Virus record (IMG/VR): IMGVR_UViG_3300017922_000003
Span: 1,340 to 65,339 of that record
Source: a virus
Lineage: Duplodnaviria; Caudoviricetes
DNA length: 64,000 nucleotides
Strand: one strand, 5' to 3'
Shown here piece after piece: positions 1 to 13,127 of the stretch. The translations under genes were made by a program, and so were the position numbers. Position 1 is the stretch's first letter. The number at the start of each line of letters is the position of its first letter. The notes beneath the pieces are model-generated. The model ran no database searches, had not been told where the DNA came from, and was given only the letters and a program-made list of their open reading frames with translations.

Positions 1-379
1 TATCAAAGTACGGATCCATATATTTGCTCATTGTACTTGTTATTTTATCTAGCTTGCTGAATATCTCTTCATAATAACTATCTACGACAATCCAGTAGCT
101 GTCATCAAGATACAATCCAGACTTATCATATGAAGATATTACTGATACACGTGACAGATCCCATTTTCTGCTGGTAAGAGTCAAGACCATATTCTTTTTT
201 ATGTGTTCAACATCATCGCCCATATACCACTCATAAGCAACAACTTTTGTGTGGTTTTTGGCCGAATCGACAGGATTAGGTCCGGCACTTATAATCCTGC
301 CATCCATAGTCTCATAAAAATTCAGGAACTTATCCTTCTTGTTGCAAATTGACGCTATAAGTTCCAATTTCTCAGGCAT
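1..379 (-). CDS. Hypothetical early protein, partial (runs off the window start)
   Basis: ATG at 379-377 directly after the stop of the 380-871 gene, preceded by GAGGAGAG; frame is open to base 1 (MPEKLELIASICNKK...). Confidence 0.7.
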   Translation of the reverse strand, partial: MPEKLELIASICNKKDKFLNFYETMDGRIISAGPNPVDSAKNHTKVVAYEWYMGDDVEHIKKNMVLTLTSRKWDLSRVSVISSYDKSGLYLDDSYWIVVDSYYEEIFSKLDKITSTMSKYMDPYFD

Positions 380-871
380 TTAATCACTCTCCTCTACATA
401 CATTATTCCGTTTCGATTAGCAAATCTATATTTAGACGTTATATCAACTTCTTCTTTATCCTTTAATATTTTCATCGCTTTCTTTCTAAGTTGTTTTCTC
501 ACATCTCGATGCAAGTACAGGTAGATAGTCCTGCCGTCTTCACCACCAGCGAATGGAAATACTTTGATGTACCTCAAATCTTTCTTTTTCACCAAGAGTC
601 CAAGAGCGTTGTTGAGCTTTCTAACAGTCTTTATTGAAACTCCTTCCTCTCTCCATTCAAATTTCAACGCTTTATCTCTAATGGCATATTTCAACAACTC
701 GTTCACAAATTTATCGATTGCTTTCTGACCAAAGGCGATATACTTTATCTCAACTTCTGGTGTATCGCCAACGGCCTCAACCAGTTTTACCTCTCCATCA
801 ACTTCAACGAGGCATTTAAATCTAGTCATTAGCCAGTTTAGATAGTACGGAGCAAAAGCAAGTATCTTCAC
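380..871 (-). CDS. Hypothetical basic protein (~163 aa)
   Basis: ORF track 380..880; RBS AAAGGAG lies 8 nt before GTG at 871, so that start is preferred. Confidence 0.75.
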   Translation of the reverse strand: MKILAFAPYYLNWLMTRFKCLVEVDGEVKLVEAVGDTPEVEIKYIAFGQKAIDKFVNELLKYAIRDKALKFEWREEGVSIKTVRKLNNALGLLVKKKDLRYIKVFPFAGGEDGRTIYLYLHRDVRKQLRKKAMKILKDKEEVDITSKYRFANRNGIMYVEESD

Positions 872-1158
872 ATAAACCACTCCTTTAAAAGTAGAATATC
901 CTGCATTTGCATTACATTTTCCAAAATAAAATGTCCTTCATATGAGTAACAAATACTTTACAGAGGCCAGCGATACTCACTAACCCCTACACCACACAAT
1001 ACACACCCTTATTACATAACATACTAGTCTTAAGTACTACGCATACTACATAACACTAGCTTGCATAAATACACACGTAATGCCACTTAAACCCTCATCA
1101 CAACCACTGTATAAACACTTTGGAGGATTGAAGTTTTGGCCGAAATGTGCTGATCTCT

Positions 1159-1170
1159 TCATGTGCTGGG
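1159..1170 (-). promoter_or_regulatory. Early-region motif copy (CCCAGCACATGA, variant)
   Basis: One mismatch to the CCCAGCTYATGA motif seen at 2006, 2696, 3846, 4289 and 4408; intergenic. Confidence 0.45.
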
Positions 1171-1479
1171 TGGAAAATTTACAAGAATGTGTACGAATAT
1201 ACGTAAATAAGGGGAAGAATACTATTCACTCTCGCTATTCGGCTCACAGACAGGCACACAACGCCCTGAGTATAGCCTCATAGATCCCCCAACGCACCGG
1301 ATATACAGCAAAACAGCCTAACTTCAGCACTAATATTCAGTCGTTCGACCTAATTCAAGGGCAATAGGCTCCACGGAGCCATGCGGGTTTGAGGTCTATT
1401 GACGCCAAATTTCCTACACAGTGGGGCGACAGAGTACGCCCATAAATATTTGGTCATTTGACTGAATTTATACAAGCAA

Positions 1480-1707
1480 TTATTTCCACCATTCGAACCC
1501 TCCGCCGGCGGACTCCATAATTTCGTTCTTCTCTTCCTGCGTGAGTTCTCTGACTCTATAGAAGCAACCACAACTAGAACACGTGTAGAATGCGGAGTTA
1601 CCTCTTCGCCAGATCTTCTCGCCACATCTCGAGCAGACGAAATATCTGTCGTCAGTGTCGTAGGGCCAGTACTTTATCTCCATATCCTTGTTGTCAAGAT
1701 CTTCCAT
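1480..1707 (-). CDS. Small Zn-ribbon protein (75 aa)
   Basis: CSRC...CSSC double CxxC; RBS AAAGGAGG before the ATG. Confidence 0.75.
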   Translation of the reverse strand: MEDLDNKDMEIKYWPYDTDDRYFVCSRCGEKIWRRGNSAFYTCSSCGCFYRVRELTQEEKNEIMESAGGGFEWWK

Positions 1708-2005
1708 TTCCTTCGCCTCCTTTATATTATCTGTTTAGATAACATATTCACCCAAAATCCTAAGGGTAATTGTCAGAAGACACGATTTCCTAAGGGTAAA
1801 TACCTTACCCCGGCTATAAAAACGCCTTAGAATCCATTCTCGCAAGGAAAGTTGTTAATGCGCTTAAATAGCCGTTTAGCACAATCGCCAAATCGCGCAA
1901 ACCCGCATAACACCGTTGGCGTTAATGCGAGTGGGTAAGTTCAGCGCAAATTCAGCGATTTCATGTCATTTTCGCTATTCAAGATCTGATCTTGTTTATA
2001 TTATA

Positions 2006-2017
2006 TCATAAGCTGGG
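2006..2017 (-). promoter_or_regulatory. Early-region motif copy (CCCAGCTTATGA)
   Basis: Exact 12-mer shared with 2696-2707; intergenic, just after a hairpin. Confidence 0.5.
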
Positions 2018-2019
2018 AT

Positions 2020-2045
2020 AAAACAGCCCGGGTTATTCACCCGGA
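2020..2045 (-). terminator. Possible intrinsic terminator
   Basis: Minus strand CCGGGTGAATAACCCGG hairpin then GCTGTTTT, immediately after the stop at 2047. Confidence 0.45.
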
Positions 2046-2046
2046 A

Positions 2047-2421
2047 CTACTTCTCTCTCGCAAATCTTTCTTTAGCAGAAATTGTATTCAGAGTACCGTC
2101 GTTCTCAATGAGGCGTTTAAGCCAATCGGTATTTGAGTCGTTGTCCCAAATTGTTTCCGGTACCCTATTATATTCTTCCCCGTCTTTGTAGAATATAATT
2201 TCGTAAACGTTAACGTCGTCCTGGTCGTGGCGAGTTGTTCCCTCGTCCACGAAGTACTCATCACAACCAGCGAACAGCATCGCATCCAGCTCACATTCTG
2301 CTGCGAGCTTAGCGATGTTTGTGTCTTCTGAGATCTCGCTATGACCATAGTCGCCTACAGCCAGATCCCAAGCCTTCCATGTTGTTGCTAGTCTTAACTT
2401 ATCACATTCTATTAACATCAT
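2047..2421 (-). CDS. Hypothetical acidic protein (~124 aa)
   Basis: 3' part of track ORF 2047..2577; ATG at 2421 follows GGAGGTGGAG and the stop of the upstream gene. Confidence 0.7.
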   Translation of the reverse strand: MMLIECDKLRLATTWKAWDLAVGDYGHSEISEDTNIAKLAAECELDAMLFAGCDEYFVDEGTTRHDQDDVNVYEIIFYKDGEEYNRVPETIWDNDSNTDWLKRLIENDGTLNTISAKERFAREK

Positions 2422-2422
2422 A

Positions 2423-2641
2423 TTACTCCACCTCCACAAGTTTTGTTGTGTAGCTAACGTGGAACTCGTCATACATGAGTTCTTCGCCGTTGAATGTAAC
2501 ATGCACGGCGTTTTGATTTGCAAGCACTTTTTCGTGCTCGCCAGCGATATATTCAATTGCTTCATTTTTGCTATCAAATATTTCTTCTTCGAATGTTTCT
2601 ACGTCATTGTCATCTACTATATATGTTTCCACTTTCCACAT
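2423..2641 (-). CDS. Hypothetical small acidic protein (~72 aa)
   Basis: Track ORF 2423..2674; RBS GGAGG before ATG at 2641 (MWKVETY...). Confidence 0.7.
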   Translation of the reverse strand: MWKVETYIVDDNDVETFEEEIFDSKNEAIEYIAGEHEKVLANQNAVHVTFNGEELMYDEFHVSYTTKLVEVE

Positions 2642-2695
2642 GACAACCTCCACATATTTTACCCACTCAGCCACTTGCTGAAGTGGGAGATCTTT

Positions 2696-2772
2696 TCATA
2701 AGCTGGGTGGTACATAGGTAAGTATATAAGATACTGCCGATAAGTATTTTACATATTTACTCACGCACCACC
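2696..2772 (-). promoter_or_regulatory. Long hairpin ending in the early motif CACCCAGCTTATGA
   Basis: Minus-strand stem GGTGGTGCGT...ATGTACCACC (2772-2706, with G-U pairs) runs directly into the motif at 2707-2696. Confidence 0.55.
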
Positions 2773-2895
2773 TATACTCTTACACTTTCACAACCAGCGA
2801 CTATTACCCCACCACCCCCGTACTAACACTCTTAACTGTCTTGAGACATAAGAGCTATCGTACATCCCCCAACGCCTTTTTCTCGCAGACTTTTG

Positions 2896-3064
2896 CAAGG
2901 TCGTTAACGCGGGCTTTTTCAAAGTCGTTACCCTTTGGGCAACGGCTGGAATTCAAAGTCGTTACCTACGTCTCGACCTGAGATTCAAGGTCGTTAACGC
3001 GTTGCGTCTCGACTCGAAATTCAAAGTCGTTACCTACGGCTCGACTTGTTTTTCAAGGTCGTTA
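2896..3064 (+). repeat. Iteron-like array of six CAARGTCGTTA boxes
   Basis: Boxes start at 2896, 2920, 2954, 2986, 3022 and 3054 (spacing 24/34/32/36/32); inter-box sequences are also related (e.g. CCTACG..CTCGAC). Confidence 0.85.
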
Positions 3065-3078
3065 ATGCGCTTAACTTT

Positions 3079-3121
3079 AAAAAAATCCCCCTCGCCAGCG
3101 CCGATAGGCGTGGTGAGAGGG
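3079..3121 (-). terminator. Intrinsic terminator closing the early RNAP cassette
   Basis: Minus strand CCCTCTCACCACGCC-TATC-GGCGCTGGCGAGGGGG followed by A and T7. Confidence 0.7.
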
Positions 3122-3241
3122 CAAAAGGGGGTGAAAAGTTGGTAACTCAGGGTTGCTTCGGGAACCAAGTCACGTTGAGTAACTTGATTCTCGGAGTAAC
3201 CCTCCCCAGGGACAGGTGGGTCCCCGGGGAGATGATGGATA

Positions 3242-3526
3242 TTATTTAGATTCGAAGCGAACGAGGGAAATAAATTTCAGAATATTTCCCTCTCGATTAG
3301 TTTGAGTTTTACCATCGACGAGAGGTATAGAGATTTGCCACCCCTCGACGAAAGTCTTAGCAGACCTTATCGGGAGCCAGCTCTGTTCGTACACGCAGTT
3401 AACAGTTTCGCCAGATGGCGTCTTTAGCACGCCACCACGCCTATATGGTTTAACAGTTTGTGGTGAGCGCTTATATTCCAAAATCTCTGGATCTACTTTA
3501 ACAATTCTTTTCTGATTCAAACTCAT
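3242..3526 (-). CDS. Hypothetical protein (94 aa)
   Basis: ORF with RBS AAGGAGG; overlaps the end of the upstream gene. Confidence 0.7.
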   Translation of the reverse strand: MSLNQKRIVKVDPEILEYKRSPQTVKPYRRGGVLKTPSGETVNCVYEQSWLPIRSAKTFVEGWQISIPLVDGKTQTNREGNILKFISLVRFESK

Positions 3527-3773
3527 TCAAATCATCCTCCTTTAAATTTTTACCAACCTCTGGCTCGGTCGGCTTGATTTTGCTCACAAAACGTTTCCAT
3601 TTACCAATGAGTGCTTCCTTAACGCTCCAAAGAACGAGCGCAAGAAGAGCACCTAAGAAACCAAAGAATATTTCTCGCACAACAACACCCCTTCCGGAAA
3701 AGATTTCTACACTGGCAACAACGGATGGTAGTGCCAACATAGACAAAGTGAAAATAAGGATTAGTTTTCGCAA
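3498..3773 (-). CDS. Small membrane protein (~91 aa, signal/TM helix plus a second TM helix)
   Basis: Track ORF 3498..3842; RBS AAAGGGTG before TTG at 3773; hydrophobic segments LILIFTLSMLALPSVVA and IFFGFLGALLALVLW. Confidence 0.65.
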   Translation of the reverse strand: MRKLILIFTLSMLALPSVVASVEIFSGRGVVVREIFFGFLGALLALVLWSVKEALIGKWKRFVSKIKPTEPEVGKNLKEDDLNEFESEKNC

Positions 3774-3845
3774 AGTGCACACCCTTTCAAAAAGATTTCC
3801 CTGCCGGTGGGGAACCGACAGGGATATGGGGTAAAAGTGCATAGT

Positions 3846-3883
3846 TCATGAGCTGGGTGTAGCCGGATGACCACACCCAACTC
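3846..3883 (-). promoter_or_regulatory. 15-bp stem-loop whose 3' arm is the early motif CCCAGCTCATGA
   Basis: Minus strand GAGTTGGGTGTGGTC-ATCC-GGCTACACCCAGCTC then ATGAA, 9 nt after the stop at 3893. Confidence 0.55.
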
Positions 3884-3892
3884 TGATTGAGT

Positions 3893-4225
3893 TTATGCCT
3901 CTTGTAGACGGGTAACGGCAACGATTCTGCCGTTTTCCCGTACTGCTGACTTCCCGGTGTCGGGAGCCAGTACGTCCGTTCGACTGGTTTTAGATGCAAC
4001 CAGCGACGAGGTTATATAGACAGTGCCATTTTCTGGTTCAGGGATACCCTCGATATCCCCGAACACTGTCTTCACGACGGGGATTTCAAACCCGTCAACG
4101 TTCATGCTTCCATTAGGCACCTGTTGCACTGAGGCTCGTGCGACGGTACCGGATGGTTTAATCTCTAATTTTCCCCTATCGGTCTCAATGACCAGGGGGT
4201 GGGGTGTCAAATTCACTAACTTCAT
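3893..4225 (-). CDS. Conserved phage protein of the N-terminal NLTPH family (function unknown)
   Basis: MKLVNLTPH...PSGTVAR...GIPEP.NGTVYITS.LVA...R.DVLAPDTG..AVR..GRIVAV pattern recognised from many phage hypotheticals; RBS GGAGG. Confidence 0.8.
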   Translation of the reverse strand: MKLVNLTPHPLVIETDRGKLEIKPSGTVARASVQQVPNGSMNVDGFEIPVVKTVFGDIEGIPEPENGTVYITSSLVASKTSRTDVLAPDTGKSAVRENGRIVAVTRLQEA

Positions 4226-4288
4226 AAGTAACCTCCATATATTTATCCCCCGCCGGACACATTCCGGAGGGAGAAGATTTTTAATACT

Positions 4289-4470
4289 TCATGAGCTGGG
4301 TGCCTCGGAATAGCAACACAACCAGCGACAACCAAGCACATAAGAATGTACTTGAGTCGTTGATAGTATTGCTACCGAGACACGGCTCAATCCATACCAA
4401 CTACAATTCATAAGCTAGGTGGTACATATGGTGATTCAGTTCGACTGCCGACCAAGGTAACCACTCGGCT
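4289..4470 (-). ncRNA. Candidate structured non-coding RNA or leader: two tandem long hairpins, each ending in the early motif
   Basis: Stems 4470-4413 and 4389-4292 (TGAGC/GCTCA, GTGTCTCGG/CCGAGGCAC, TAGCAA/TTGCTA and others); motif copies at 4419-4408 and 4300-4289; no credible ORF. Confidence 0.45.
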
Positions 4471-4598
4471 TTGTCCCCCAACGCGCACGTGCTACAATAG
4501 AAGGGGCAAGGGAAGGTGAGAAGGCCATGCTCATCAGACTCCCGAAGCCTTCTCTTGTGGGAGTGACGAGAGGGCCGAAGCCCCCTCGTTTCGCAGAG

Positions 4599-7211
4599 TT
4601 ATTCTCGGTAATTGACAAGGAAGTCGGCTATTTCAGCCTCCTTGTCGTATGCGTCTTTGTCCAGACACTGTACGTCCGGACAATTTTCAGTTGCTTCCTC
4701 ATAGACTCCGCGGAGGAAGTCACCACGGAGTTGAGGAAGACCGAACCACCAGAGGCAGACGATGTCATCGTCATCGTCTCCTCCGATCCATTCGGCGTCC
4801 TTGTAACCAACGACGATTACATCTTCAGGTAGATATGCCGTGGTTACTTGGACTGTTGGGATCCTCTTAAGAACAGGATCCCTTTGGAGCCTAAACGTGA
4901 GCTGAGAGAGGACTTTATTAACGGCATCTGGACCAGCCGCTATGAGGTCCTCTCTCTGTTTCTTACTCAACGTTGTATTCATTTGGAGCAGTCTATTAAT
5001 AGTTTCCGCTTTGAACGGAACGACCGCTCCTCTTTCGAAAGCGCCCGTAGCCATTCTGCCACTTACAACGGGCAGTCTGGGTGTGAACGCAATCTTGGAT
5101 CGTTTGAGTAAGAATTCCATATACTCAAACAGGCGGTCAAATGTATAAGTACCGCCTTTTTCTTCGGTAACCACGATTTCCATGGCCTTACGAAGTTCTG
5201 GACCAATCATTGTGGTACCGTCGTTCTTAATAAGGTACTTTGCCGGGAGCAATTTAATGCCTCTGACCATTAGAGGCTCGTCTACTCCCTTAAGTACCAT
5301 CTTTATCTCCTTGTCAGACAGGCGTGTATCTTCCCATCTAACCTTTTCTGCCACCAGAGTCTTCACAAACTCGAGACTTGGTGGGACGGATGAGCTCTTC
5401 TCGAAAAGCTTGTTGAAAGCCTTCCTTCTGAGCTCATTCAGCTCTTTCTTCTTCATGCGGTCAATGCTCTTGGGACTATTTTCTTGAACCATTTCATCGA
5501 CCTGCTGGAGAATCATCGTTATTGACTTGATATTGTCTATGATTCTCCTAATTTCCCACTGATGTTTCTTAGCATGGTGCCTAAGCAGTGGGTTGAGCTG
5601 GCTGAACACGTCAGGAGATGTTGCTTTTTCCTGAGCGTACAGCATTGATTTCATGCGTACCCCTGTCGATCTGTCTACCGAGAGGTCTATGGTAACCTCT
5701 GATAGGCAGATATAGCACGGTACACCATTAACCGTGCCTTCAACGAGGTGCACGTTTTTGGGATCAACGTTTCGAGGAATAGTCACTTTCTCTTCCTCAT
5801 TAAGATAAGCGTTCATCGCTATTGTTCCTGAAGCGAACAACGCTTTCTTGAGTCTTCTTGATCCCTGGGAATCGAATACGAGATCAACTTGCATCTCGCG
5901 ATCCCCAACCTTGGCCCGATAGTTTCCAGACCATATTCCAATGCCTTTGGACTTGAGTCCGCCAGCATTGAACTTGGCATTAACTGCGTGACCGTCGGCG
6001 TACAGTTCCTTAAACTTCTTGTTGACTAATACGCCATTGCCACGATTAGATACAAAACCGTTACTCAGGGCAGGAAAGCCCTTTTCACAGTTCTTTGGGA
6101 TAGCTATAATAGCCTGTGTTGAAGCCTCAGGCATTTTATATGTCCCGTTTGGCAGTTCAGAGTACATCTTAATGTACTCCTTCCTGCGCTCACCCAGATC
6201 AACCGCAAAGTGCACGGCTGACTGGATTGTTCTCTTGACATCCGCTGTGTCCATCAACGGATTCAAGAGGTACATCAGGAAACTGTAGTGATAATTCTTG
6301 TTCTTAGGTACAGCCAGTTTCCCGATGGAATTTGAACTAGAGAACGATGCAAAGTCCAGCATGTCCTCTGTCCATTCTTTGCTCCCTTTGTAGGAAGCAA
6401 ATGCTTTTTCAGGGAGTTTGTTGATTAGATCCCTGAATATTTCCTTATCGTCGTATGGGTCAACTTCAACCCATAGACGTTTGCTGATCCACTTATACTT
6501 TCCAGCAAAGCGGATCAGTTTTGATTTGAGAGTCCTGAAAAGGTCTCTCCGGTGGATCTTATAGGCATATTTAAAGAGCGTAGAACTCTTTATCAGCCTA
6601 TACGTCTTACTCTTCTGGTGATAAAAGAAAACACCAGAGAGCAGGACTTTGGAGTAGTATCTCGACAGGTGACCGAGATCATCTATGATGACCTCACCAT
6701 CGAGGTCCTCACTGGACCATCGTGATGGATCATCATAGGGACTGCTGGTACTCTCGGTTTCGAATACCAGTGTTTCTTCCATCATTTCAACCAAAGGTTG
6801 CAACCTCTCAGGGTCGCCGTATGCTTCCTTGCGAGCCCTGAAAATGTCTGTTACAACCATGTGGTTGATTTTCCCGAAGGCTTTCTTTATCTCTTTCAAT
6901 TCTGCCTTCGAGAAATCCTTTCCACACAATTGGAGGAATATACTCCATTCCTCCGCCGGTTTGTATATACCCTTGTTGGAACTGTTACCGGGTATAACCG
7001 GCATGGACTTTTTGTCCAACAGAGGCTGTATTACATTTGCCTCCATGGACAGTGCTACTTTCTCCTTCAATTGCTCAGGCACATATGGCGCTAAGTGCAT
7101 AAGCAATCGAACTGGAATCCCTATGGAGTCCTTGAAATCTTTCAAGACTCTCAACTGACTACGAAATTCATCGTAAGTCAGAGGGGTTTCCAGCTTCATG
7201 AGATCGACCAT
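4599..7211 (-). CDS. Putative single-chain two-barrel (DPBB) DNA-directed RNA polymerase catalytic subunit, 870 aa
   Basis: beta-like motifs GNGVLVNKKF, K413-FNAGGL-K420-S-K422-G and VD443LVFDSQG, then beta'-like R777-D-P-V-L and GG-D812-DDD-D816. R-to-D spacing is 35 aa, as for E. coli beta' R425-D460. RBS AAAGGGGGT. Confidence 0.7.
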   Translation of the reverse strand: MVDLMKLETPLTYDEFRSQLRVLKDFKDSIGIPVRLLMHLAPYVPEQLKEKVALSMEANVIQPLLDKKSMPVIPGNSSNKGIYKPAEEWSIFLQLCGKDFSKAELKEIKKAFGKINHMVVTDIFRARKEAYGDPERLQPLVEMMEETLVFETESTSSPYDDPSRWSSEDLDGEVIIDDLGHLSRYYSKVLLSGVFFYHQKSKTYRLIKSSTLFKYAYKIHRRDLFRTLKSKLIRFAGKYKWISKRLWVEVDPYDDKEIFRDLINKLPEKAFASYKGSKEWTEDMLDFASFSSSNSIGKLAVPKNKNYHYSFLMYLLNPLMDTADVKRTIQSAVHFAVDLGERRKEYIKMYSELPNGTYKMPEASTQAIIAIPKNCEKGFPALSNGFVSNRGNGVLVNKKFKELYADGHAVNAKFNAGGLKSKGIGIWSGNYRAKVGDREMQVDLVFDSQGSRRLKKALFASGTIAMNAYLNEEEKVTIPRNVDPKNVHLVEGTVNGVPCYICLSEVTIDLSVDRSTGVRMKSMLYAQEKATSPDVFSQLNPLLRHHAKKHQWEIRRIIDNIKSITMILQQVDEMVQENSPKSIDRMKKKELNELRRKAFNKLFEKSSSVPPSLEFVKTLVAEKVRWEDTRLSDKEIKMVLKGVDEPLMVRGIKLLPAKYLIKNDGTTMIGPELRKAMEIVVTEEKGGTYTFDRLFEYMEFLLKRSKIAFTPRLPVVSGRMATGAFERGAVVPFKAETINRLLQMNTTLSKKQREDLIAAGPDAVNKVLSQLTFRLQRDPVLKRIPTVQVTTAYLPEDVIVVGYKDAEWIGGDDDDDIVCLWWFGLPQLRGDFLRGVYEEATENCPDVQCLDKDAYDKEAEIADFLVNYRE

Positions 7212-7234
7212 TTTGTTACCCCCTTTTCAAAATT

Positions 7235-7261
7235 GACAGTTTAACGTCATGTCTGGGACGT
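7235..7261 (-). promoter_or_regulatory. H-type pseudoknot in the 5' leader of the RNAP gene
   Basis: Minus strand ACGTC-CCAGACAT-GACGT-TAAAC-TGTC: stem 1 ACGTC/GACGT, loop GACA pairs with TGTC; ends 8 nt upstream of the RBS. Confidence 0.45.
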
Positions 7262-7390
7262 GAGCTACCCGCTCATACCTGCCATCCGGCATGCATCAAC
7301 GAGCAGTCGTTAGAGCTTAGTCGTTAACACATTCAACTAGTCCCCTACCGCACCTACTCTCACAGCAAAGGGGCTAATTGAATTTTTGCG

Positions 7391-7459
7391 TTAACGGTGT
7401 TGCATACCGCTACGGTTCTTAACCAACGATGTTTCATACCACAATGGATTCTTATCCAA
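7391..7459 (-). CDS. Possible 22-aa leader peptide (MDKNPLWYETSLVKNRSGMQHR)
   Basis: Perfect AAAGGAGG 8 nt before TTG at 7459; the RBS is folded into a GGAG-GAAA-CTCC hairpin. Confidence 0.3.
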   Translation of the reverse strand: MDKNPLWYETSLVKNRSGMQHR

Positions 7460-7529
7460 TGGAGTTTCCTCCTTTCCAGAGCGATTAACCCGCTCATATC
7501 TGCCTGAGGCAGGTATCAGAGAGTTAATC

Positions 7530-7566
7530 AAAATAAAGCAAAAGGCGGGGGCCGAAGCCCCTCGCC
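7530..7566 (-). terminator. Intrinsic terminator after the 174-aa gene
   Basis: Minus strand GGCGAGGGGC-TTCG-GCCCCCGCC then TTTTGCTTTATTTT. Confidence 0.7.
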
Positions 7567-7575
7567 AAAAAAATA

Positions 7576-8100
7576 TCACTTAAGGTTCTTGCGAACCTCC
7601 GACAGAAGCTTTCCAGCCTCCGTCTGTCCCAGTTTCACCTGGGACTTTTGGGGCTTTTTGCCCCTTGAGGACTTTTCGGTCCTCTTTTTCCTAGTTTTCT
7701 TTTTCGAGGACTTCTCAGTCCTCTGTTCCTTTTTGACTGCCTTTACGACAGTCATTGAGGAGAATCTTTCGACCTCCTCTTTGTTTAGAGAGCTGAGCAG
7801 CCCCCTCGTCTGGACGAAGGCTACCCTCCTCTCACGGAGCCACTTATCTTTCAAGCGCTCCGTTCTTTTTAGGCTAGCCACTACTGTGGCGTAGCCTTCC
7901 TTACTATTGGGGTCCGGATAAAGTTCATCCATCCCCCTTTTAATCGTCAGCAAGGTGCTCTTTGCACCCGCTAACTTTGAGAGGACCATCTCGGCCCTCT
8001 CGTATTTTTCATTCAGGGTTTCAACCCTTTTCAGGGCTTCCGCCCTCCTTTTCTTTTCGAGACCTTTCTCAAGGTCTCTTTTCAATTTCAACAAATCCAT
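7576..8100 (-). CDS. Highly basic coiled-coil protein (174 aa), probably nucleic-acid binding
   Basis: K/R-rich with a repeated RTEKSS unit; RBS GAAAGGGGG. Confidence 0.75.
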   Translation of the reverse strand: MDLLKLKRDLEKGLEKKRRAEALKRVETLNEKYERAEMVLSKLAGAKSTLLTIKRGMDELYPDPNSKEGYATVVASLKRTERLKDKWLRERRVAFVQTRGLLSSLNKEEVERFSSMTVVKAVKKEQRTEKSSKKKTRKKRTEKSSRGKKPQKSQVKLGQTEAGKLLSEVRKNLK

Positions 8101-8361
8101 GATTTTTCCCCCTTTCTCCTCGCCACACCCATGGACTAGTGTGGGTCACAGGAGTAGAATTTAGGTCTTTTATTTTTAGTCAATAGGGTCATTACCCAGG
8201 ACCCGAGCCCATTGCTCGTATCAACCCAACTGTTAACAGTCAGGCTCATATGAGGAATGAGCGTGGTAAAATAAAAATGTGTCCCCGGCGTGGGGCCGAG
8301 GACAAACCCCGTGTTGATTTACACAGCACACGGGAAAGCTGCGATACCCAAGGGGGAGGAT

Positions 8362-8508
8362 TTATTCCTCCTCCTTGTTTTCCTCAGGCTCCTCGATGGG
8401 CATATTGCCCTCGAGGATTTCGCTTATACTGGCATATTCGCCAGCAAAGCTTTTCTCATCCACCGTTGCTAGGCGGACAAGAAATTCAAGACCCTTTTTC
8501 CAATCCAT
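8362..8508 (-). CDS. Small acidic early protein (48 aa), first gene of the leftward arm
   Basis: Perfect RBS AAAGGAGGTGA before ATG at 8508 (MDWKKGLEF...EEPEENKEEE); 3' half of track ORF 8362..8664. Confidence 0.7.
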   Translation of the reverse strand: MDWKKGLEFLVRLATVDEKSFAGEYASISEILEGNMPIEEPEENKEEE

Positions 8509-8608
8509 GATGTCACCTCCTTTCAAATAATGTCTCCTACACCGGCTGAGAAGAAGGGCACGGGCAAAAATCTCAGCCCCTCTACCACCCGGATATAGGA
8601 GCATAGTT

Positions 8609-8732
8609 CTCCCTCCCTGTAATCCTCTCTTTTTACATTCAGTACCCCCCTCTGTTTTCTTCACTTTTCCCAGTACTCCCTCCCTGTATACGAAGTAGAT
8701 TCGTATCTTCCACGAATAATCCTCTCTTTTTA
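8609..8732. repeat. Pyrimidine-rich block with two interleaved direct repeats
   Basis: CTCCCTCCCTGTA at 8609 and 8676; TAATCCTCTCTTTTTA at 8620 and 8717. Confidence 0.7.
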
Positions 8733-8741
8733 TCTAACTGT

Positions 8742-8760
8742 TGTTATATCTACATATGAG
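8742..8760 (+). promoter_or_regulatory. Late promoter motif TGTTATATCTA-N5-GAG (terminase operon)
   Basis: Matches the motif found at the start of eight other late operons. Confidence 0.7.
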
Positions 8761-8774
8761 ACGTGAACACCTTA

Positions 8775-8844
8775 TAACGACCTTGAAAAAGCCGTTGCCT
8801 GAAGGGTAACGACCTTGAGTTTCAGGTCGTGCTGTAGGTAAGGA
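8775..8844 (-). repeat. Inverted copy of the iteron array (two perfect boxes, one degenerate)
   Basis: TAACGACCTTG at 8775 and 8807, TAAGGA at 8839 (32-bp spacing); spacers match the reverse complement of parts of 2913-2990. Confidence 0.8.
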
Positions 8845-8851
8845 AAGAAAG

Positions 8852-9613
8852 GTGGAGGTGCGACTAGTGTCCCAAAACAATGGACGAGAGTCTAAAAATA
8901 AAGAAATAGATCTCCTGTCTGAAGTGAGTAATGCGTTAGAGCGCAAGGAGAGGCAGAAGCGTAGTTTACGTGAGAAGTTAGCGTTGGCACGTGTTGGTAG
9001 TGGGGCAAACACGGGGCCGTTAGAGATACGCGATGTTGATCCATACATTGATTTAAGTGGTGTGGATGATGAGACGAGGGAGAAGATACAGCAGAGGCTC
9101 AGGTTACTTAGCAGGGGAATTAGTTTTACTGGTGTATTGAATTGCAAGGGGCACAAGGCGTGTCCTTACCGGGACGGTTGTCCATTTATTGGGTTGGAGC
9201 CCAAGGGGGAGAAGTGTCCTATGGAGATGGCGTCGCTGGATCGTATGTTTGACGCTTATTTTCAGAGTCTTGGTATAGATGGTCAGGATGCTGCGGAGAT
9301 AACGCAGTTACAGTCCCTATTGGATTTAGAGCTTAAGATCATGCGTGCGAATGCGCAATTGAGTGAAGATGGGATGGAGCAGAGCACGTACAAGCAGGGA
9401 CAGGACGGTTCGACGTTTGTTGAGAAAAAACAGCATCATTTGCTGAAGACGCTTGAGACCTTGCACAATCAGAAGATGAAGATGCTTAAGAGTTTCAAAG
9501 CCACGCGGGAAAGTCGCGATGTGGAAAGGGATGTCTTTGATTTATCCAACAGAATAAACGAGCTACACAAAGCCCAGGGGCAGAAATCTCGGGGTCAAGG
9601 GAGTGATAAATAA
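8852..9613 (+). CDS. terS: Probable terminase small subunit
   Basis: First late gene, upstream of TerL; Cys cluster (C.GHKAC....CP....CP.E) and a helical C-terminus (...KKQHHLLKTLE...KMLKSFKATRESR) typical of TerS oligomerisation regions. Confidence 0.6.
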   Translation: MEVRLVSQNNGRESKNKEIDLLSEVSNALERKERQKRSLREKLALARVGSGANTGPLEIRDVDPYIDLSGVDDETREKIQQRLRLLSRGISFTGVLNCKGHKACPYRDGCPFIGLEPKGEKCPMEMASLDRMFDAYFQSLGIDGQDAAEITQLQSLLDLELKIMRANAQLSEDGMEQSTYKQGQDGSTFVEKKQHHLLKTLETLHNQKMKMLKSFKATRESRDVERDVFDLSNRINELHKAQGQKSRGQGSDK

Positions 9614-10500
9614 TGGTTGCTGGTAAAAGTGTTCTTGATTATTTAATTGGTGCTATTGGCGGAATGGGTAAGAGATGGAAGAAGGCAGCTGGTGCTGAAG
9701 CTGTTGAAAACGCCAAGGGTGCTTTAAATAAGGTGTTTGGAGCAATAGGTTTTCGTCGAGCCGGCAGACAGGCTGTGGTTGATGCAGGACAGGCTGCTGG
9801 TGGTGGCAGTAAGTTGTTTAGAGGTATCTTTGGTTTTGCTGGTGGTGACGCTGGTTTTGAAGCTAAGAACACCATCGCTGCTGTTTCCCAGCCATTAGCC
9901 GAATATGCTAGTGATGTTCAATACTATAGAACCTTGAAAGGTAAAGCTGCTGGAATAACAAAAAAGCTTAGCAAAGATACTCCTGAGAAAGTTAAAGCAA
10001 TAGCCAAAAAGGTTGAAAATGCCTATGCAAATGGCGATGTCGATGCTATAAAGGCAGCCAACAAAGATGCTTTTGATTACATAAAAACTTTGAAAAACGC
10101 AGACTACAGAGAACAAGCCGCAAAACAATTTAGAGAGACAGGTCTTGGTGAATTACTCAATGCAAGAGGAATGTCACGATACAACTCTTCGTATGATCGT
10201 CTCAAAGGTAGTTTGAATCAAGTTGGGGCAGAAATTGCAGATGAAAAAGCTTTAACGAACTGGGCTGCTAATGCCTCTGCTTCTGATCTAAAAGCCTTGC
10301 GTGCTATTAAACCAGACACTGGTTTGAGTTTCTGGGGAAAATCAGCTGTAGCTGGAATAACAAGAGGCGGTCTTGTTGGAGGGGTTGCAAGGGCTTCGCT
10401 ACCATTCGTGGGAATAGGCGGTACCATATATGCTTTCAAGAAACCTTTCGAAATGATTGATGTTGCTACCGAAGAGATAAAGAGAAACGGAGGGCTATAA
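9613..10500 (+). CDS. Gly/Ala/Lys-rich protein with C-terminal hydrophobic segment; possible internal/ejection protein
   Basis: 295-aa ORF coupled to terS by TAATG; call rests on composition only. Confidence 0.6.
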   Translation: MVAGKSVLDYLIGAIGGMGKRWKKAAGAEAVENAKGALNKVFGAIGFRRAGRQAVVDAGQAAGGGSKLFRGIFGFAGGDAGFEAKNTIAAVSQPLAEYASDVQYYRTLKGKAAGITKKLSKDTPEKVKAIAKKVENAYANGDVDAIKAANKDAFDYIKTLKNADYREQAAKQFRETGLGELLNARGMSRYNSSYDRLKGSLNQVGAEIADEKALTNWAANASASDLKALRAIKPDTGLSFWGKSAVAGITRGGLVGGVARASLPFVGIGGTIYAFKKPFEMIDVATEEIKRNGGL

Positions 10501-10501
10501 C

Positions 10502-11413
10502 ATGCCTTCTGCTGCATATTTTCTCAACAATGACGTAACAGCACAGTCTCAAAGTGATGCTCTTGCTGCTACCGGTGGAGCATTAAAAGCCGGGCTGGGA
10601 CTTGGTGGAGCGTGGTTTGTTGAAGAAATGCTTGCTGAACGCATGGAGCTGGCTCCGTTCCAAAAAACCGGGAGAATTACCAGTGCTATTAGCGAAAGGA
10701 TATTTGGTTTAAAGGGAGTAGGATTGCATCAACTTTCAGATGTTAACTATCCACTTGCATTTAAAGAAAAAGCCAATGTATTGTTGTGGCGTAACAGGTA
10801 CGCCCGTAAAGCTGCTAAGTACGTAAATGCTTCGATCGAAGGGAAAGCTGCCGGTGAGTTCTTGAGTTCTGCGGTTAAGGCTGGAAATAAGACTATTTCA
10901 CTCAAAACACCCACAACCCTATTTGGTTTTAAAACTGAAAATCAGGGGTTGCTCTTCAATATGAATTTAACTGGCGGAGGAAAGAAATTTTCTAAAGGAT
11001 TTATAGGTCAGGCGAGAGGCAAGATAGCCAGTCTTATTAAGAGTAAAAATTATGCAGCTGCAAAGAAACTCGGTGCCTATGCCACTTCTGTACTTGGTCA
11101 GTCTATAGGTTCTTACATAATTGCCTTTGATGTCGCCAGCACGGTGGCTATGGGAATCAATCTGGCACGTGGAGCATTTAACTATTTTGAAGGTTTGGGA
11201 CAGGCTGCCAAAGCTTATGCGCGCGAGTCCATAGGATCCGAAAACTCTGTTGCTGTTCCGGACTTTGTTGATTCTCAGGCCAATCAGGCTATGAGACAGG
11301 CGAATGTGCAGGAACTTATGCAGTCCCGACAGCAGACGGTTATGCAAAACACGAACGAAGCTTCCATGCTGAAAAACAACCCATACAAATTTTACAGATA
11401 TATTGGAGGTTGA
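10502..11413 (+). CDS. Gly/Ala-rich amphipathic protein; possible internal/ejection protein
   Basis: 303-aa ORF in the operon with GxxxG-type hydrophobic stretches. Confidence 0.6.
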   Translation: MPSAAYFLNNDVTAQSQSDALAATGGALKAGLGLGGAWFVEEMLAERMELAPFQKTGRITSAISERIFGLKGVGLHQLSDVNYPLAFKEKANVLLWRNRYARKAAKYVNASIEGKAAGEFLSSAVKAGNKTISLKTPTTLFGFKTENQGLLFNMNLTGGGKKFSKGFIGQARGKIASLIKSKNYAAAKKLGAYATSVLGQSIGSYIIAFDVASTVAMGINLARGAFNYFEGLGQAAKAYARESIGSENSVAVPDFVDSQANQAMRQANVQELMQSRQQTVMQNTNEASMLKNNPYKFYRYIGG

Positions 11414-11417
11414 TTTC

Positions 11418-13127
11418 TTGTCAACCAAAACACTTAATATGCAACAGCAATACCAGAAGATGGCTCAGGAGTATCTTGGTGTGGATTATGAGCTTGAGCA
11501 AATGTGTGTTGACTGTGTTCTCAGAAGACTTGAGAACGATATAAACGAGCACCGAATACCTTGTAAACCTCTTGAAAAAGGTACGATAGATGATCAGATA
11601 CCTCAAACTAAAGATGATTATTTACTTAAATTAGCGGAAGATCCCGCATTCTTTTCAAAAGAGATGTTTGAAATGGAATTGCGAGGATTTCAAAAAGAGA
11701 TATTGTACTGCACGTCCCGTAGGAAAGTGCTCAGGATTTGTCGTAGAGCCGGTAAGACTGAAGCGATGGCTATAGCTGCTATCAAGCACGCCATTACACA
11801 TAAAGATCAGGAAATACTGGTCGCTGCTCCCATGGAATCACAGGTTAAAAATCTGTTTGAAAAGATGAACAAGCATCTTATCAATTCAGAAGCGTTGCGT
11901 AATTCCGTGATTAAACAATCCACAACCAAAACACGGCTCTATCGTTCAAAACCTTTTGAACTTGCGTTCAACAACGGGTCTAAGATAGAAGGTTTTACTA
12001 CTGGGTCTCAGGGTGCCAAGAATATTCGTGGTCAGGACGGTTCTATGATTGTGCTGGACGAGGTTGACTATATGAACAGACCGGATATAGAAGCCATACT
12101 CGCTATCTTAGCAACCAGTCCAAAAACCACGCTTATAGCAAGTTCCACACCCTCGGGCAGACGAGATTACTTCTATCAGTGGTGTCATTCCTCTTCATTT
12201 AAAGAAATACATTATTCCTATCAGGATATAGAAATATACGATCCCAAACAGGACAGAGAGTTTAAAGAACAGTACGATAAAGAGGCGTACGAGCGTGAAA
12301 TCCTTGCCATGTTTACCCTTATGGAATCGGGCGTTTACAGGCCTGACAAGATCCAGCAGAGTATAGAAAATTACAGTTTTGATGACCCATACAACGTACC
12401 TGAAGGGCTATACACCATGGGGGTTGACTGGAATGAAACAGCTGCTGGTGTACAGATTGTAGTGGTGCGTTACGAGCCTGATAAAGGCAAGTTTAGAACG
12501 TGCAATGTGTTGGAAATACCTCCATCTCAATTCACTCAGATAGAGGCTGTGGAGAAGATTATCGACCTCAACACCATGTATCAGCCGCGCAAGATAATGC
12601 TGGACGCCGGTTATGGTAATACCCAGTTCCAGATGCTTCAAAAACATGCTGAACAGCACCCGGAATCAAAACTGGAAGAAAGGCTGGAGATGATACCGTT
12701 CCAGTCCAAGGTACATCTTGTAGATCCCGCGACAGGCAACAAGGTTAGCAGAAGCATAAAGACCCACATGGTTTCTATAAGTGCGCGTTATGTGGAAAAC
12801 AATCGTATTATCATGCCAGCTTCAGAAGATTATCCTGGCAAGCTGGTAGGTATTATGCGTAATTACGCCATTGAAAAGATAGGCAGCAACGGTGAGCCTC
12901 AATATTCCAAAGGAAAGGTTCACATATTGGAAGCATGGATACTCGCCATGTACGGCATGTGGAAGATAAGCGAAGATGGCGGTGGATTCAATATGAGAAA
13001 TCCAATCATTGTTAAAACAGAACGAGACAAGAACAGCAAACAAAGCGTTAGACGTAGTTTCAGACGCTCTCGTGGTGCTCTGGACTTATCGCGTGGAGCG
13101 CTTGGCGGTAGGAGGCGTTGGACTTGA
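11418..13127 (+). CDS. terL: Terminase large subunit
   Basis: Walker A RRAGKT, Walker B IVLDE, coupling motif SSTP, RNase H-like GVDW and LDAGYG; RBS GGAGG before TTG at 11418 (track start 11403). Confidence 0.95.
   Translation: MSTKTLNMQQQYQKMAQEYLGVDYELEQMCVDCVLRRLENDINEHRIPCKPLEKGTIDDQIPQTKDDYLLKLAEDPAFFSKEMFEMELRGFQKEILYCTSRRKVLRICRRAGKTEAMAIAAIKHAITHKDQEILVAAPMESQVKNLFEKMNKHLINSEALRNSVIKQSTTKTRLYRSKPFELAFNNGSKIEGFTTGSQGAKNIRGQDGSMIVLDEVDYMNRPDIEAILAILATSPKTTLIASSTPSGRRDYFYQWCHSSSFKEIHYSYQDIEIYDPKQDREFKEQYDKEAYEREILAMFTLMESGVYRPDKIQQSIENYSFDDPYNVPEGLYTMGVDWNETAAGVQIVVVRYEPDKGKFRTCNVLEIPPSQFTQIEAVEKIIDLNTMYQPRKIMLDAGYGNTQFQMLQKHAEQHPESKLEERLEMIPFQSKVHLVDPATGNKVSRSIKTHMVSISARYVENNRIIMPASEDYPGKLVGIMRNYAIEKIGSNGEPQYSKGKVHILEAWILAMYGMWKISEDGGGFNMRNPIIVKTERDKNSKQSVRRSFRRSRGALDLSRGALGGRRRWT

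What the first reader, a model, noticed from the sequence alone, without database searches (positions are those of the whole stretch)
2896..8844. RNAP cassette bracketed by inverted iteron arrays: candidate long terminal repeat or packaging boundaries
Seen: six CAARGTCGTTA boxes at 2896-3064 and an inverted array at 8775-8844 with 32-bp spacing (about three helical turns). The spacers are homologous too: AGCCGTTGCCTGAAGGGTAACGACCTTGA versus the reverse complement AGCCGTTGCCCAAAGGGTAACGACTTTGA. The enclosed 5.7 kb looks self-contained: its first gene starts at 8508 and a terminator (3121-3079) lies just inside the left array. The right array sits immediately before terS. No transposase or recombinase was recognised inside. 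Inference: these are binding sites (TerS or an initiator) marking the ends of a T5/SPO1-style terminal redundancy that delivers the RNAP gene first. A replication origin or an invertible/mobilisable cassette are alternatives.
Basis: partly seen in the sequence, partly recalled or inferred. Interest (0 to 1): 0.8.

Follow-up and report, generated by a model that had tools for sequence, protein, structure and literature searches.

The report
Mirror-image repeat arrays flanking phage polymerase cassette
Two clusters of a short repeated DNA box sit in mirror orientation on either side of a 5.7-kb early gene block that encodes a phage RNA polymerase; they are probably protein-binding sites marking the edges of a terminal repeat, but they could equally be ordinary gene-control sites.

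Summary
CAARGTCGTTA occurs exactly six times on the + strand (2896-3064) and twice on the - strand (8775, 8807). A vestigial third copy lies in 32-bp phase. There are no other copies in the 65-kb record, and 0 of 100 shuffles reach 8. Whole 29-38-nt units are shared between the arrays.

The arrays bracket a self-contained minus-strand cassette. Its 870-aa protein has RNA-polymerase beta- and beta'-like folds.

The function is not settled. For terminal-repeat edges:
- The nearest TerL relatives include Bacillus phage 0305phi8-36. Its 6.5-kb terminal repeat sits at the syntenic place.
- Twort-like phages bracket their long terminal repeats with inverted 12-mers.

Against it:
- No read-level data were available.
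- Two further half-boxes lie inside the cassette.
- All three clusters have the same polarity relative to the downstream gene, as a regulator's operators would.
- No relative shows such arrays.

My odds are about 0.35 for terminal-repeat edges, 0.30 for operator arrays, and the rest for origin, partition, entry-stop, RNA or mobile-element readings. The TerS label is unproven. The scan's index holds no look-alike on other DNA. Interest is moderate.

The parts
2892..3069 (+). Left array: six exact boxes at 2896, 2920, 2954, 2986, 3022 and 3054. Two subtypes alternate (…GTCGTTAACGCG and …GTCGTTACC), giving a 68-bp higher-order repeat. Each unit carries a weaker inverted partner of the box.
   Evidence: (D1, D2)
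3079..3121 (-). Intrinsic terminator that closes the cassette, just inside the left array
   Evidence: -25.1 kcal/mol, U7 tail
3242..4225 (-). Three small genes of 94, 114 and 110 aa. The 110-aa product matches phrog_21731, of unknown function.
4599..7211 (-). 870-aa protein with an RNA-polymerase beta-like barrel (about residues 310-514) and a C-terminal beta'-like part ending in GDDDDD. Probably a single-chain two-barrel RNA polymerase.
   Evidence: no sequence-family hit
7305..7326 (+). Two 8-nt box cores (AGTCGTTA) 14 nt apart in the leader of the 870-aa gene. A weak inverted full-length match lies at 7388-7404.
   Evidence: (I12, I13)
7530..7566 (-). Intrinsic terminator after the 174-aa gene
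   Evidence: -19.4 kcal/mol
7576..8100 (-). 174-aa charged protein with a Lys-rich tail and no family match
8362..8508 (-). First gene of the cassette (48 aa), ATG at 8508 behind a strong ribosome-binding site
8775..8849 (-). Right array: two exact boxes (8775-8785, 8807-8817) and a vestigial third (8839-8849) in 32-bp phase. Its unit types B and C are shared with the left array.
   Evidence: (I1, I3)
8867..9613 (+). 248-aa protein (GTG at 8867). It is the first gene of the packaging module and is conserved upstream of TerL in related phages. It is a TerS candidate by position only.
11403..13127 (+). Large terminase subunit

Best explanation
The two arrays are cis-acting protein-binding sites that mark the two edges of a long direct terminal repeat of about 5.7 kb (roughly 3065-8774). 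That repeat is the early cassette carrying the phage RNA polymerase gene. In the concatemer a single copy of the repeat is flanked by the arrays in mirror symmetry. A terminase or end-processing complex bound at both arrays could then cut on opposite strands at the two edges, and the repeat would be duplicated by strand displacement, as is proposed for T7-type ends (recalled). In the virion each array would lie about 5.7 kb from one end and point towards it.

Shown: the arrays, their mirror symmetry, the shared units, the self-contained cassette, the synteny and the precedents. Inferred: the physical ends, the binding protein and the cutting mechanism.
For: 1. The arrays are non-random and confined to two places that bracket exactly one closed transcription block, from the divergent junction to a terminator.
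2. TerL is nearest to MTATph1 (31.2% identity over 78% of the query) and to 0305phi8-36 (30.6% over 73%), among 86 matching phage records.
3. In 0305phi8-36 the annotated 6,479-bp terminal repeat holds 7 minus-strand genes and ends in the divergent gap before the packaging module. TerL lies about 5 kb further on, and an RNA polymerase gene (gp99) lies just outside the repeat (PMC2147016 and PMC3357382 passages). Here the bracketed block is 5,710 bp between the arrays and 5,922-5,954 bp including them. It is minus-strand, ends in the divergent gap, and lies 2.6 kb before TerL.
4. The 248-aa first gene of the module is conserved upstream of TerL in 4 related phages, so the module is homologous.
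5. [quoted passage not shown] In phage K that 12-mer straddles the end of the left repeat on the - strand (8485-8496) and the start of the right repeat on the + strand (139,822-139,833).
6. The source-run contig spans both arrays unbroken and with no differences, so the arrangement is not an assembly artefact.
Against: - There is no read-level evidence for ends or doubled coverage. Only Logan contigs could be laid.
- The spanning contig (523-11132) has word depth 16.2, against 13.3-13.9 for its right-hand neighbours. By my arithmetic a 2x repeat would give about 21. The tool warns that per-contig depth cannot be used this way, so this is inconclusive rather than negative.
- Two box cores and a weak inverted match lie inside the cassette. 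Edge markers do not predict them.
- All three clusters read TAACGACYTTG on the sense strand of the next gene downstream (2674<-, 7211<-, 8867->). Transcription polarity therefore explains the 'inversion' as well.
- 0305phi8-36 has no arrays at its repeat edges.
- The syntenic regions examined in WH1 (9 kb up to the start of the homologue of the 248-aa gene) and in MTATph1 (the last 11.6 kb of its record) have none either.
- In a related strain (run X6) a contig aligns up to 8688 and again from 8908 but not across the right array at 80% likeness.
- The arrays are unequal (6 against 2-3).
- TerS identity is unproven.
Confidence: 0.35

Rival explanations
1. Operator arrays of one sequence-specific DNA-binding regulator, phage-encoded or host. 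It would control three transcription units: the packaging/late operon (right array, 20-90 nt before the 8867 start), the polymerase gene (cores at 7305/7319, 94 nt before its start) and the next early operon (left array, 220-390 nt before the 2674 start). The 'inversion' would simply follow the direction of the regulated genes.
For: All three clusters are intergenic and share one polarity relative to the downstream gene. Clusters 1 and 2 sit between an intrinsic terminator and the next gene, where a new unit must start. Units have dyad symmetry typical of dimer operators, for example GTCGTTACCC-TTT-GGGCAACGGC. Mean spacing is 31.6 bp, about three helical turns. No sigma-70-like promoter was found in either gap, so an activator-dependent or phage-polymerase promoter is plausible (none of the 8 promoter-like sites in 2400-9000 lies in an array gap; shuffle mean 8.0).
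Against: No DNA-binding domain was recognised in any nearby protein. The distance to the regulated start varies from about 20 to 390 nt. Six sites far upstream of a small early gene is unusual. Two other early gaps that carry the same promoter-like motif pair (at 1159/1285 and 4408/4474) have no boxes. There are no boxes before any other unit in 55 kb of late genes.
Confidence: 0.3
2. Iterons of a replication origin, or centromere-like partition sites bound by an initiator or a ParR/TubR-type adaptor, present as two separate clusters.
For: Tandem short direct repeats in rough helical phase are the classic form of iterons and of parC/tubC centromeres (recalled). The GC skew changes sign at about 8.7 kb.
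Against: There is no AT-rich unwinding stretch beside the left array: AT is 0.46-0.58 there against a window mean of 0.58. Only one 50-nt window of 0.70 lies beside the right array. None of 24 near-matches to the DnaA box falls in 2,600-9,000. No initiator, helicase loader, ParA/ParM/TubZ or ParB-like protein was recognised in or beside the cassette. The skew switch coincides with the switch of coding strand.
Confidence: 0.1
3. Entry-control sites like the T5 injection stop signal. Proteins bound to the arrays would hold the incoming DNA after the first 5.7 kb until the cassette's products, including the polymerase, are made.
For: T5 carries two inverted 131-bp composite repeats with paired protein-binding boxes about 3.2 kb apart, at the inner part of its terminal repeat. 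They are conserved in 25 relatives and proposed as the stop signal (bioRxiv 10.1101/866236 passages). The cassette here is transcribed from the right array towards the left array and ends with a terminator just before the six-box array.
Against: This reading depends on the unproven terminal position. The boxes are not DnaA boxes. The T5 model itself is a proposal. No A1/A2-like proteins were recognised.
Confidence: 0.07
4. RNA-level elements. If transcribed, the repeats form hairpins or protein-binding sites in leaders that control translation or read-through.
For: All clusters have the same sense-strand polarity. The B unit folds as a hairpin in both arrays (-11.9 and -10.0 kcal/mol). The right-array leader can pair with the ribosome-binding site of the 8867 gene (MFE -33.3 kcal/mol, z -3.1).
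Against: Fold z-scores are only -2.4 to -3.3 and follow from the inverted partial boxes. Both strands of the left array fold equally well. There is no covariation to test with only two copies. There is no Rfam match. The left array lies after a strong terminator.
Confidence: 0.07
5. Ends of a mobile or invertible cassette: several recombinase-binding repeats in inverted orientation, as at Mu, Tn7 or Tn402 ends.
For: Unequal clusters of inward-facing repeats (6 and 2-3) at the two ends of a 5.9-kb block match the layout of such transposon ends (recalled).
Against: No transposase, ATPase partner or recombinase was found. The only large protein has a polymerase fold. There is no flanking direct repeat longer than 5 nt. 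Two early-arm motif families occur both inside and outside the cassette, so the block is native. No strand-change joints appear in 4 runs, though these are contigs only. Distant homologues of the 870-aa gene have no arrays in the short flanks available.
Confidence: 0.04

Closest known systems
12-bp inverted repeats bracketing the long terminal repeats of Twort-like (Kayvirus) staphylococcal phages
   Same: Short inverted repeats sit at both edges of a several-kb direct terminal repeat made of early genes (PMC4111496 passage; checked in phage K).
   Different: There it is one 12-mer per edge. Here there are arrays of 6 and 2-3 boxes with conserved 30-nt units. The sequences are unrelated. The terminal repeat is proven there and not here.
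Terminal repeat of Bacillus phage 0305phi8-36 (6,479 bp)
   Same: The TerL is related (about 31% identity). The repeat is a block of minus-strand genes that ends in the divergent gap before the packaging module. A phage RNA polymerase gene lies at that end of the early arm. The size is similar.
   Different: No repeat arrays occur at its edges. Its polymerase (gp99, PF05183-like) lies outside the repeat and shows no detectable similarity to the 870-aa protein.
T5 repeat regions 2 and 3 (IRC-spacer-IRD and its inverse), the proposed injection stop signal
   Same: Two inverted composite repeats with several protein-binding boxes lie kilobases apart in the terminal-repeat region and bracket poorly conserved early genes.
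   Different: In T5 both copies lie inside the repeat. The boxes are DnaA boxes, and no DnaA box lies near the arrays here. The function in T5 is itself only proposed.
lambda cosB / SPP1 pac: small-terminase binding repeats next to the terS gene (recalled)
   Same: Several short repeats directly upstream of the first packaging gene.
   Different: Those systems have one site, not a mirror pair 5.7 kb apart. The 248-aa protein matches no terminase small-subunit family.

Membership tests
Long direct terminal repeat with bracketing inverted repeats (Twort-like type) | Physical terminal redundancy: doubled coverage and fixed read starts at both edges | tested here: inconclusive
   Only Logan contigs were available. 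One contig spans 523-11132 at depth 16.2, against 13.3-13.9 for its neighbours. Per-contig depth is not usable for this.
Long direct terminal repeat with bracketing inverted repeats (Twort-like type) | Short inverted repeats at both edges of the block | tested here: met
   Six + and two - exact boxes; shared units at 84-90% identity
Long direct terminal repeat with bracketing inverted repeats (Twort-like type) | Large terminase related to phages with exact long terminal repeats | tested here: met
   30.6% identity to 0305phi8-36 TerL over 73% of the query. The relation is distant, so this is weak.
Long direct terminal repeat with bracketing inverted repeats (Twort-like type) | The repeat is a block of early genes next to the packaging module | tested here: met
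   Minus-strand cassette 3242-8508 with its own terminator; TerL 2.6 kb to the right
Iteron-type replication origin | AT-rich unwinding element and initiator gene beside the iterons | tested here: not met
   AT is 0.46-0.58 in the left array against a window mean of 0.58. No initiator-like family was found.
Mu/Tn7/Tn402-type transposon ends | Transposase gene inside and a target-site duplication outside | tested here: not met
   No transposase family. The longest flanking direct repeat is 4-5 nt.
T5-type injection stop signal | Paired DnaA boxes in inverted composite repeats | tested here: not met
   None of 24 DnaA-box near-matches lies in 2,600-9,000
Small terminase subunit (for the 248-aa protein) | Match to a terminase small-subunit family | tested here: not met
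   No hit in Pfam (E up to 0.01), PHROGs, NCBIfam or PDB. The ESM Atlas's nearest named cluster (Terminase_4 in 19% of members) scores 0.84, below the tool's lead threshold.
Small terminase subunit (for the 248-aa protein) | Conserved position upstream of TerL | tested here: met
   tblastn relatives lie upstream of TerL in MTATph1, KLEB27-3, Edson and WH1
Single-chain two-barrel RNA polymerase (YonO / QDE-1 / crAss gp66 kind), for the 870-aa protein | A beta-like and a beta'-like double-psi barrel in one chain, with an Asp-rich metal loop | tested here: met
   Model pLDDT is 63.9. Residues about 310-514 align on Rpb2 with Z 11.9, rmsd 3.5 and 185 aligned. All listed Foldseek hits are bacterial beta' chains: best E 2e-4, probability 0.99, TM only 0.13. 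G811-D812-D813-D814-x-D816 is invariant in 8 sequences.
Single-chain two-barrel RNA polymerase (YonO / QDE-1 / crAss gp66 kind), for the 870-aa protein | Sequence membership in a described family (for example PF05183) | tested here: not met
   No Pfam, PHROG or NCBIfam hit. hhalign against 0305phi8-36 gp99 gives probability 0.2.

The most novel reading that the evidence does not exclude
The arrays are polar protein roadblocks at both edges of the terminal repeat, and they couple the phage's own two-barrel RNA polymerase to genome handling. On entry, the six-box array would stop DNA transfer or read-through after the 5.7-kb cassette until the polymerase is made (T5-like two-step entry with T7-like polymerase-driven pull-in). 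Late in infection, polymerase or terminase stalling at the mirror arrays of the concatemer junction would trigger the staggered cuts that regenerate the repeat. This resembles the T7 polymerase pause site at the concatemer junction (recalled). It would explain both the mirror placement and the common polarity relative to transcription.
Probability: 0.08. Interest if true: 0.8.

Novelty: new variant of a known kind. Interest (0 to 1): 0.45.

Why it matters
Long exact terminal repeats are common in large virulent phages (T5, SPO1, Twort-like, 0305phi8-36). How the terminase finds both edges, and how the repeat is duplicated, is poorly understood. The only described edge marks I found in the papers I read are single 12-mers.

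A phage in which both edges carry multi-copy, mirror-symmetric binding arrays would give a tractable handle. It offers footprints, cryo-EM of the bound complex and mutational scans. It would also tie an unusual early RNA polymerase cassette to the genome ends.

If the arrays are only operators, the finding is an ordinary, if neat, regulon of an uncultured subsurface phage.

Tried and rejected
Relatives
- Megablast of 2500-9700 against 50,697 phage records found no match.
- Single-protein and alignment scans of IMG/VR found no relative for the 870-aa protein, TerL or the 248-aa alignment. The tools say records of this genome or near ones may be left out.
- Genome contigs found none for A1 or A3.
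- Metagenome contigs gave 3 short loci with 34-36% identical polymerase homologues. Their flanks (1.9, 1.3 and 0.8 kb upstream; 0.5 kb downstream in one) hold no arrays. They are too distant and too short to count against conservation.
- A two-box pattern scan of IMG/VR gave 45 single hits. By my estimate that is about what chance gives. The only loci with 3 boxes (L012, L039) are unrelated tandem repeats of 15-16-nt period.

Reads
- All four runs laid are contigs.
- Depth (16.2 against 13.3-13.9 and 8.85) and the lack of inversion joints prove nothing either way.
- The parts of the stretch that runs X3, X5 and X6 leave uncovered are not evidence.
- The 4377->2694 'joint' in X5 is, in my reading, the 22-nt repeat at 2695/4407 aligned to the wrong copy.

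0305phi8-36 edges. The best inverted matches between its two edge regions are two 8-mers, one of them 53 and 52 nt outside the two edges. By my estimate chance gives about 1.3 such 8-mers, so I dropped this.

Other negatives
- No sigma-70-like site lies in the array gaps.
- There is no Rfam family apart from one tRNA.
- The first fold of the 870-aa protein was too poor to use (pLDDT 45.3).
- A search for 'MTATph1' found no paper.
- PMC5618024, PMC4113786 and PMC5418689 (passages only) added nothing on edge repeats.
- Supplements were not opened.

I did not run complex prediction, because no binding claim rests on it.

Full report
What is there

The window is bases 1340-65339 of a 65,339-base linear IMG/VR virus record that CheckV rates 45% complete. 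The genome is therefore probably about 145 kb.

The pattern CAARGTCGTTA, with up to one mismatch, has 8 matches, and all are exact. Six are on the + strand at 2896, 2920, 2954, 2986, 3022 and 3054. Two are on the - strand at 8775 and 8807. Shuffles give a mean of 2.15 and at most 6. The whole record holds no further copy, and the backwards control finds none.

A 19-nt weight matrix separates the eight sites (20.7-25.2 bits) from everything else in 64 kb (12.8 bits or less). It shows that the conserved box is about TTCAARGTCGTTA(A/C)C.

Left-array steps are 24, 34, 32, 36 and 32, mean 31.6. That is about three helical turns and not a multiple of three, so the repeat is not coding. The right-array step is 32. 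A third copy in phase (8839-8849) has lost the box but kept the spacer.

The arrays share whole units, not only the box: 29 nt at 90% and 38 nt at 84% (I3 and I1). The order of the unit types differs between the arrays. Each unit pairs the box with a weaker inverted partner 12-17 nt away, or is itself a palindrome (GTCGTTACCC-TTT-GGGCAACGGC).

What the arrays enclose

Between the arrays lies a closed minus-strand block.
- A 48-aa gene starts at 8508 behind a strong ribosome-binding site.
- A 174-aa charged protein follows, then a terminator at 7566-7530.
- The 870-aa gene follows, then three small genes.
- A strong terminator at 3121-3079 lies 15 nt inside the left array.

None of these proteins hits Pfam, PHROGs or NCBIfam, apart from one PHROG of unknown function.

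The 870-aa protein has only 4 close and 3-4 remote homologues in 5.8 and 1.8 billion proteins. All end in an invariant G-D-D-D-x-D. A second AlphaFold model, built on 8 sequences, reaches pLDDT 63.9. VIA-align puts residues about 310-514 on the second-largest subunit of cellular RNA polymerases (Z 11.9, rmsd 3.5, 185 residues). Every listed Foldseek hit is a bacterial beta' chain (best E 2e-4, probability 0.99, but TM 0.13). A single-chain two-barrel polymerase is therefore plausible. It belongs to no described sequence family and shows no similarity to 0305phi8-36 gp99.

To the right, the + strand module starts with a 248-aa protein (GTG at 8867) and reaches TerL at 11403.

A third cluster and a common polarity

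Prompted by an earlier first-reader note, I found two 8-nt cores (AGTCGTTA) at 7305 and 7319. They lie in the gap between the 7566-7530 terminator and the polymerase gene. Eight copies of this 8-mer are in the window against 1.6 expected, and five of them are in the clusters. A weak inverted full-length match lies at 7388-7404.

All three clusters are intergenic. Each reads TAACGACYTTG on the sense strand of the next gene downstream (2674<-, 7211<-, 8867->). The mirror arrangement can therefore also be described as one polarity relative to transcription.

The cassette is native to this phage

Two other motif families of the early arm lie on both sides of the left array.
- TCATRAGCTGGG: three of its six copies lie left of the array and three inside the cassette.
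- TCCCCCAACGC: two of its three copies lie left of the array and one inside the cassette.

They show that the cassette is not a foreign insert.

Comparison with related phages

TerL finds 86 phage records. The best are Moorella phage MTATph1 (31.2% identity) and Bacillus phage 0305phi8-36 (30.6%).

0305phi8-36 is non-permuted with a 6,479-bp terminal repeat (PMC3357382 abstract and passages). In its record the repeat holds seven minus-strand genes and ends in the divergent gap (6395-6671) before the + strand module that leads to TerL. On the other side, just outside the right copy of the repeat, lies a phage RNA polymerase gene (PMC2147016 passages).

The window has the same plan: an early minus-strand arm, a polymerase gene, a divergent gap, then the packaging module. 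The block between the arrays (5.7-5.95 kb) is close in size.

The 248-aa gene has relatives upstream of TerL in MTATph1, KLEB27-3, Edson and WH1, so the packaging modules are homologous.

However, no arrays occur at the 0305phi8-36 repeat edges. None occur in the stretches of WH1 (the 9 kb leading up to the homologue of the 248-aa gene) and MTATph1 (the last 11.6 kb of its record) that I examined.

Precedents for repeats at terminal-repeat edges

A paper on phage Team1 states that Twort-like long terminal repeats are separated from the unique DNA by 12-bp inverted repeats (PMC4111496, passage read). In phage K that 12-mer straddles the end of the left repeat on one strand and the start of the right repeat on the other.

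T5 carries two inverted 131-bp composite repeats with paired DnaA boxes about 3.2 kb apart in its terminal repeat. They are proposed as the injection stop signal (bioRxiv 10.1101/866236, passages read).

Direct test attempted

Sixteen runs hold part of the stretch, and all are kept as contigs. In the probable source run one contig covers 523-11132 without a difference. The arrangement, both junctions included, is therefore real. Its depth figure cannot show or exclude a doubled repeat.

Related strains in oil-field runs cover parts of the cassette and module at 80-95% likeness. One contig fails to align across 8689-8907, the stretch that holds the right array. I therefore have no evidence that the arrays are conserved.

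Weighing

The mirror arrays at the two ends of a closed early block, the TerL kinship and synteny with a phage that has a 6.5-kb repeat at this place, and the Twort-like precedent make terminal-repeat edges the single best reading. I put it at about 0.35.

The internal half-boxes, the common polarity, the dyad-symmetric units and the lack of recognisable promoters in the gaps make operator arrays of a regulator nearly as likely, at about 0.30. The two readings are not exclusive.

Origin or partition iterons lack an AT-rich element, DnaA boxes and any initiator or partition protein.

A mobile or invertible cassette lacks a recombinase and a target duplication, and the block shares native motifs with its surroundings.

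RNA-level roles rest on modest fold scores only.

Verdict

The feature is real and non-random, and it is a new variant of known kinds of phage cis-elements. Its function can be decided by read mapping. The scan's index holds no look-alike on other DNA.

Noticed in passing
window 4599-7211 (-): The 870-aa protein combines an RNA-polymerase beta-like barrel (about residues 310-514; Z 11.9 to Rpb2) with a beta'-like C-terminal part. It stops about 54 residues after the invariant GDDDxD loop, and three relatives stop within 10 residues of it. The family has fewer than 10 members in two very large protein libraries and no Pfam model.
   Followed up: partly
window 1159-4484: Two early-arm motif families occur only in gaps of the minus-strand arm. 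TCATRAGCTGGG has 6 copies against 0.43 expected. TCCCCCAACGC has 3 exact copies against 0 expected. They are candidate promoter or leader elements. The copy at 3846 ends 3 nt before the ATG of the 114-aa ORF, with no ribosome-binding site.
   Followed up: partly
window 8600-8735: The gap upstream of the cassette holds two further repeat pairs: AGT(T/A)CTCCCTCCCTGTA at 8605 and 8672, and TAATCCTCTCTTTTTA at 8620 and 8717. On the minus strand they could be tandem promoters of the cassette. No sigma-70-like site was found there.
   Followed up: no
window 2400-3300: GC skew jumps from about -0.24 to about -0.04 at the left array and stays weak up to about 6900, although the genes remain on the minus strand. 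This is a compositional step at the array.
   Followed up: no
window 8867-9613 (+): The 248-aa protein has a four-Cys cluster (C93, C99, C105, C117, invariant in its one close homologue) followed by coiled-coil-like sequence. It is conserved upstream of TerL in MTATph1 and three 0305phi8-36-like Bacillus phages. It may be a zinc-binding packaging or DNA-recognition protein.
   Followed up: partly
window 1-14000, runs X3, X5, X6: The same strain (no differences) turns up at low depth in a second subsurface sample. Relatives at 80-95% likeness appear in several oil-field metagenomes. In them the gap before the polymerase gene diverges completely from 7231 onward.
   Followed up: no
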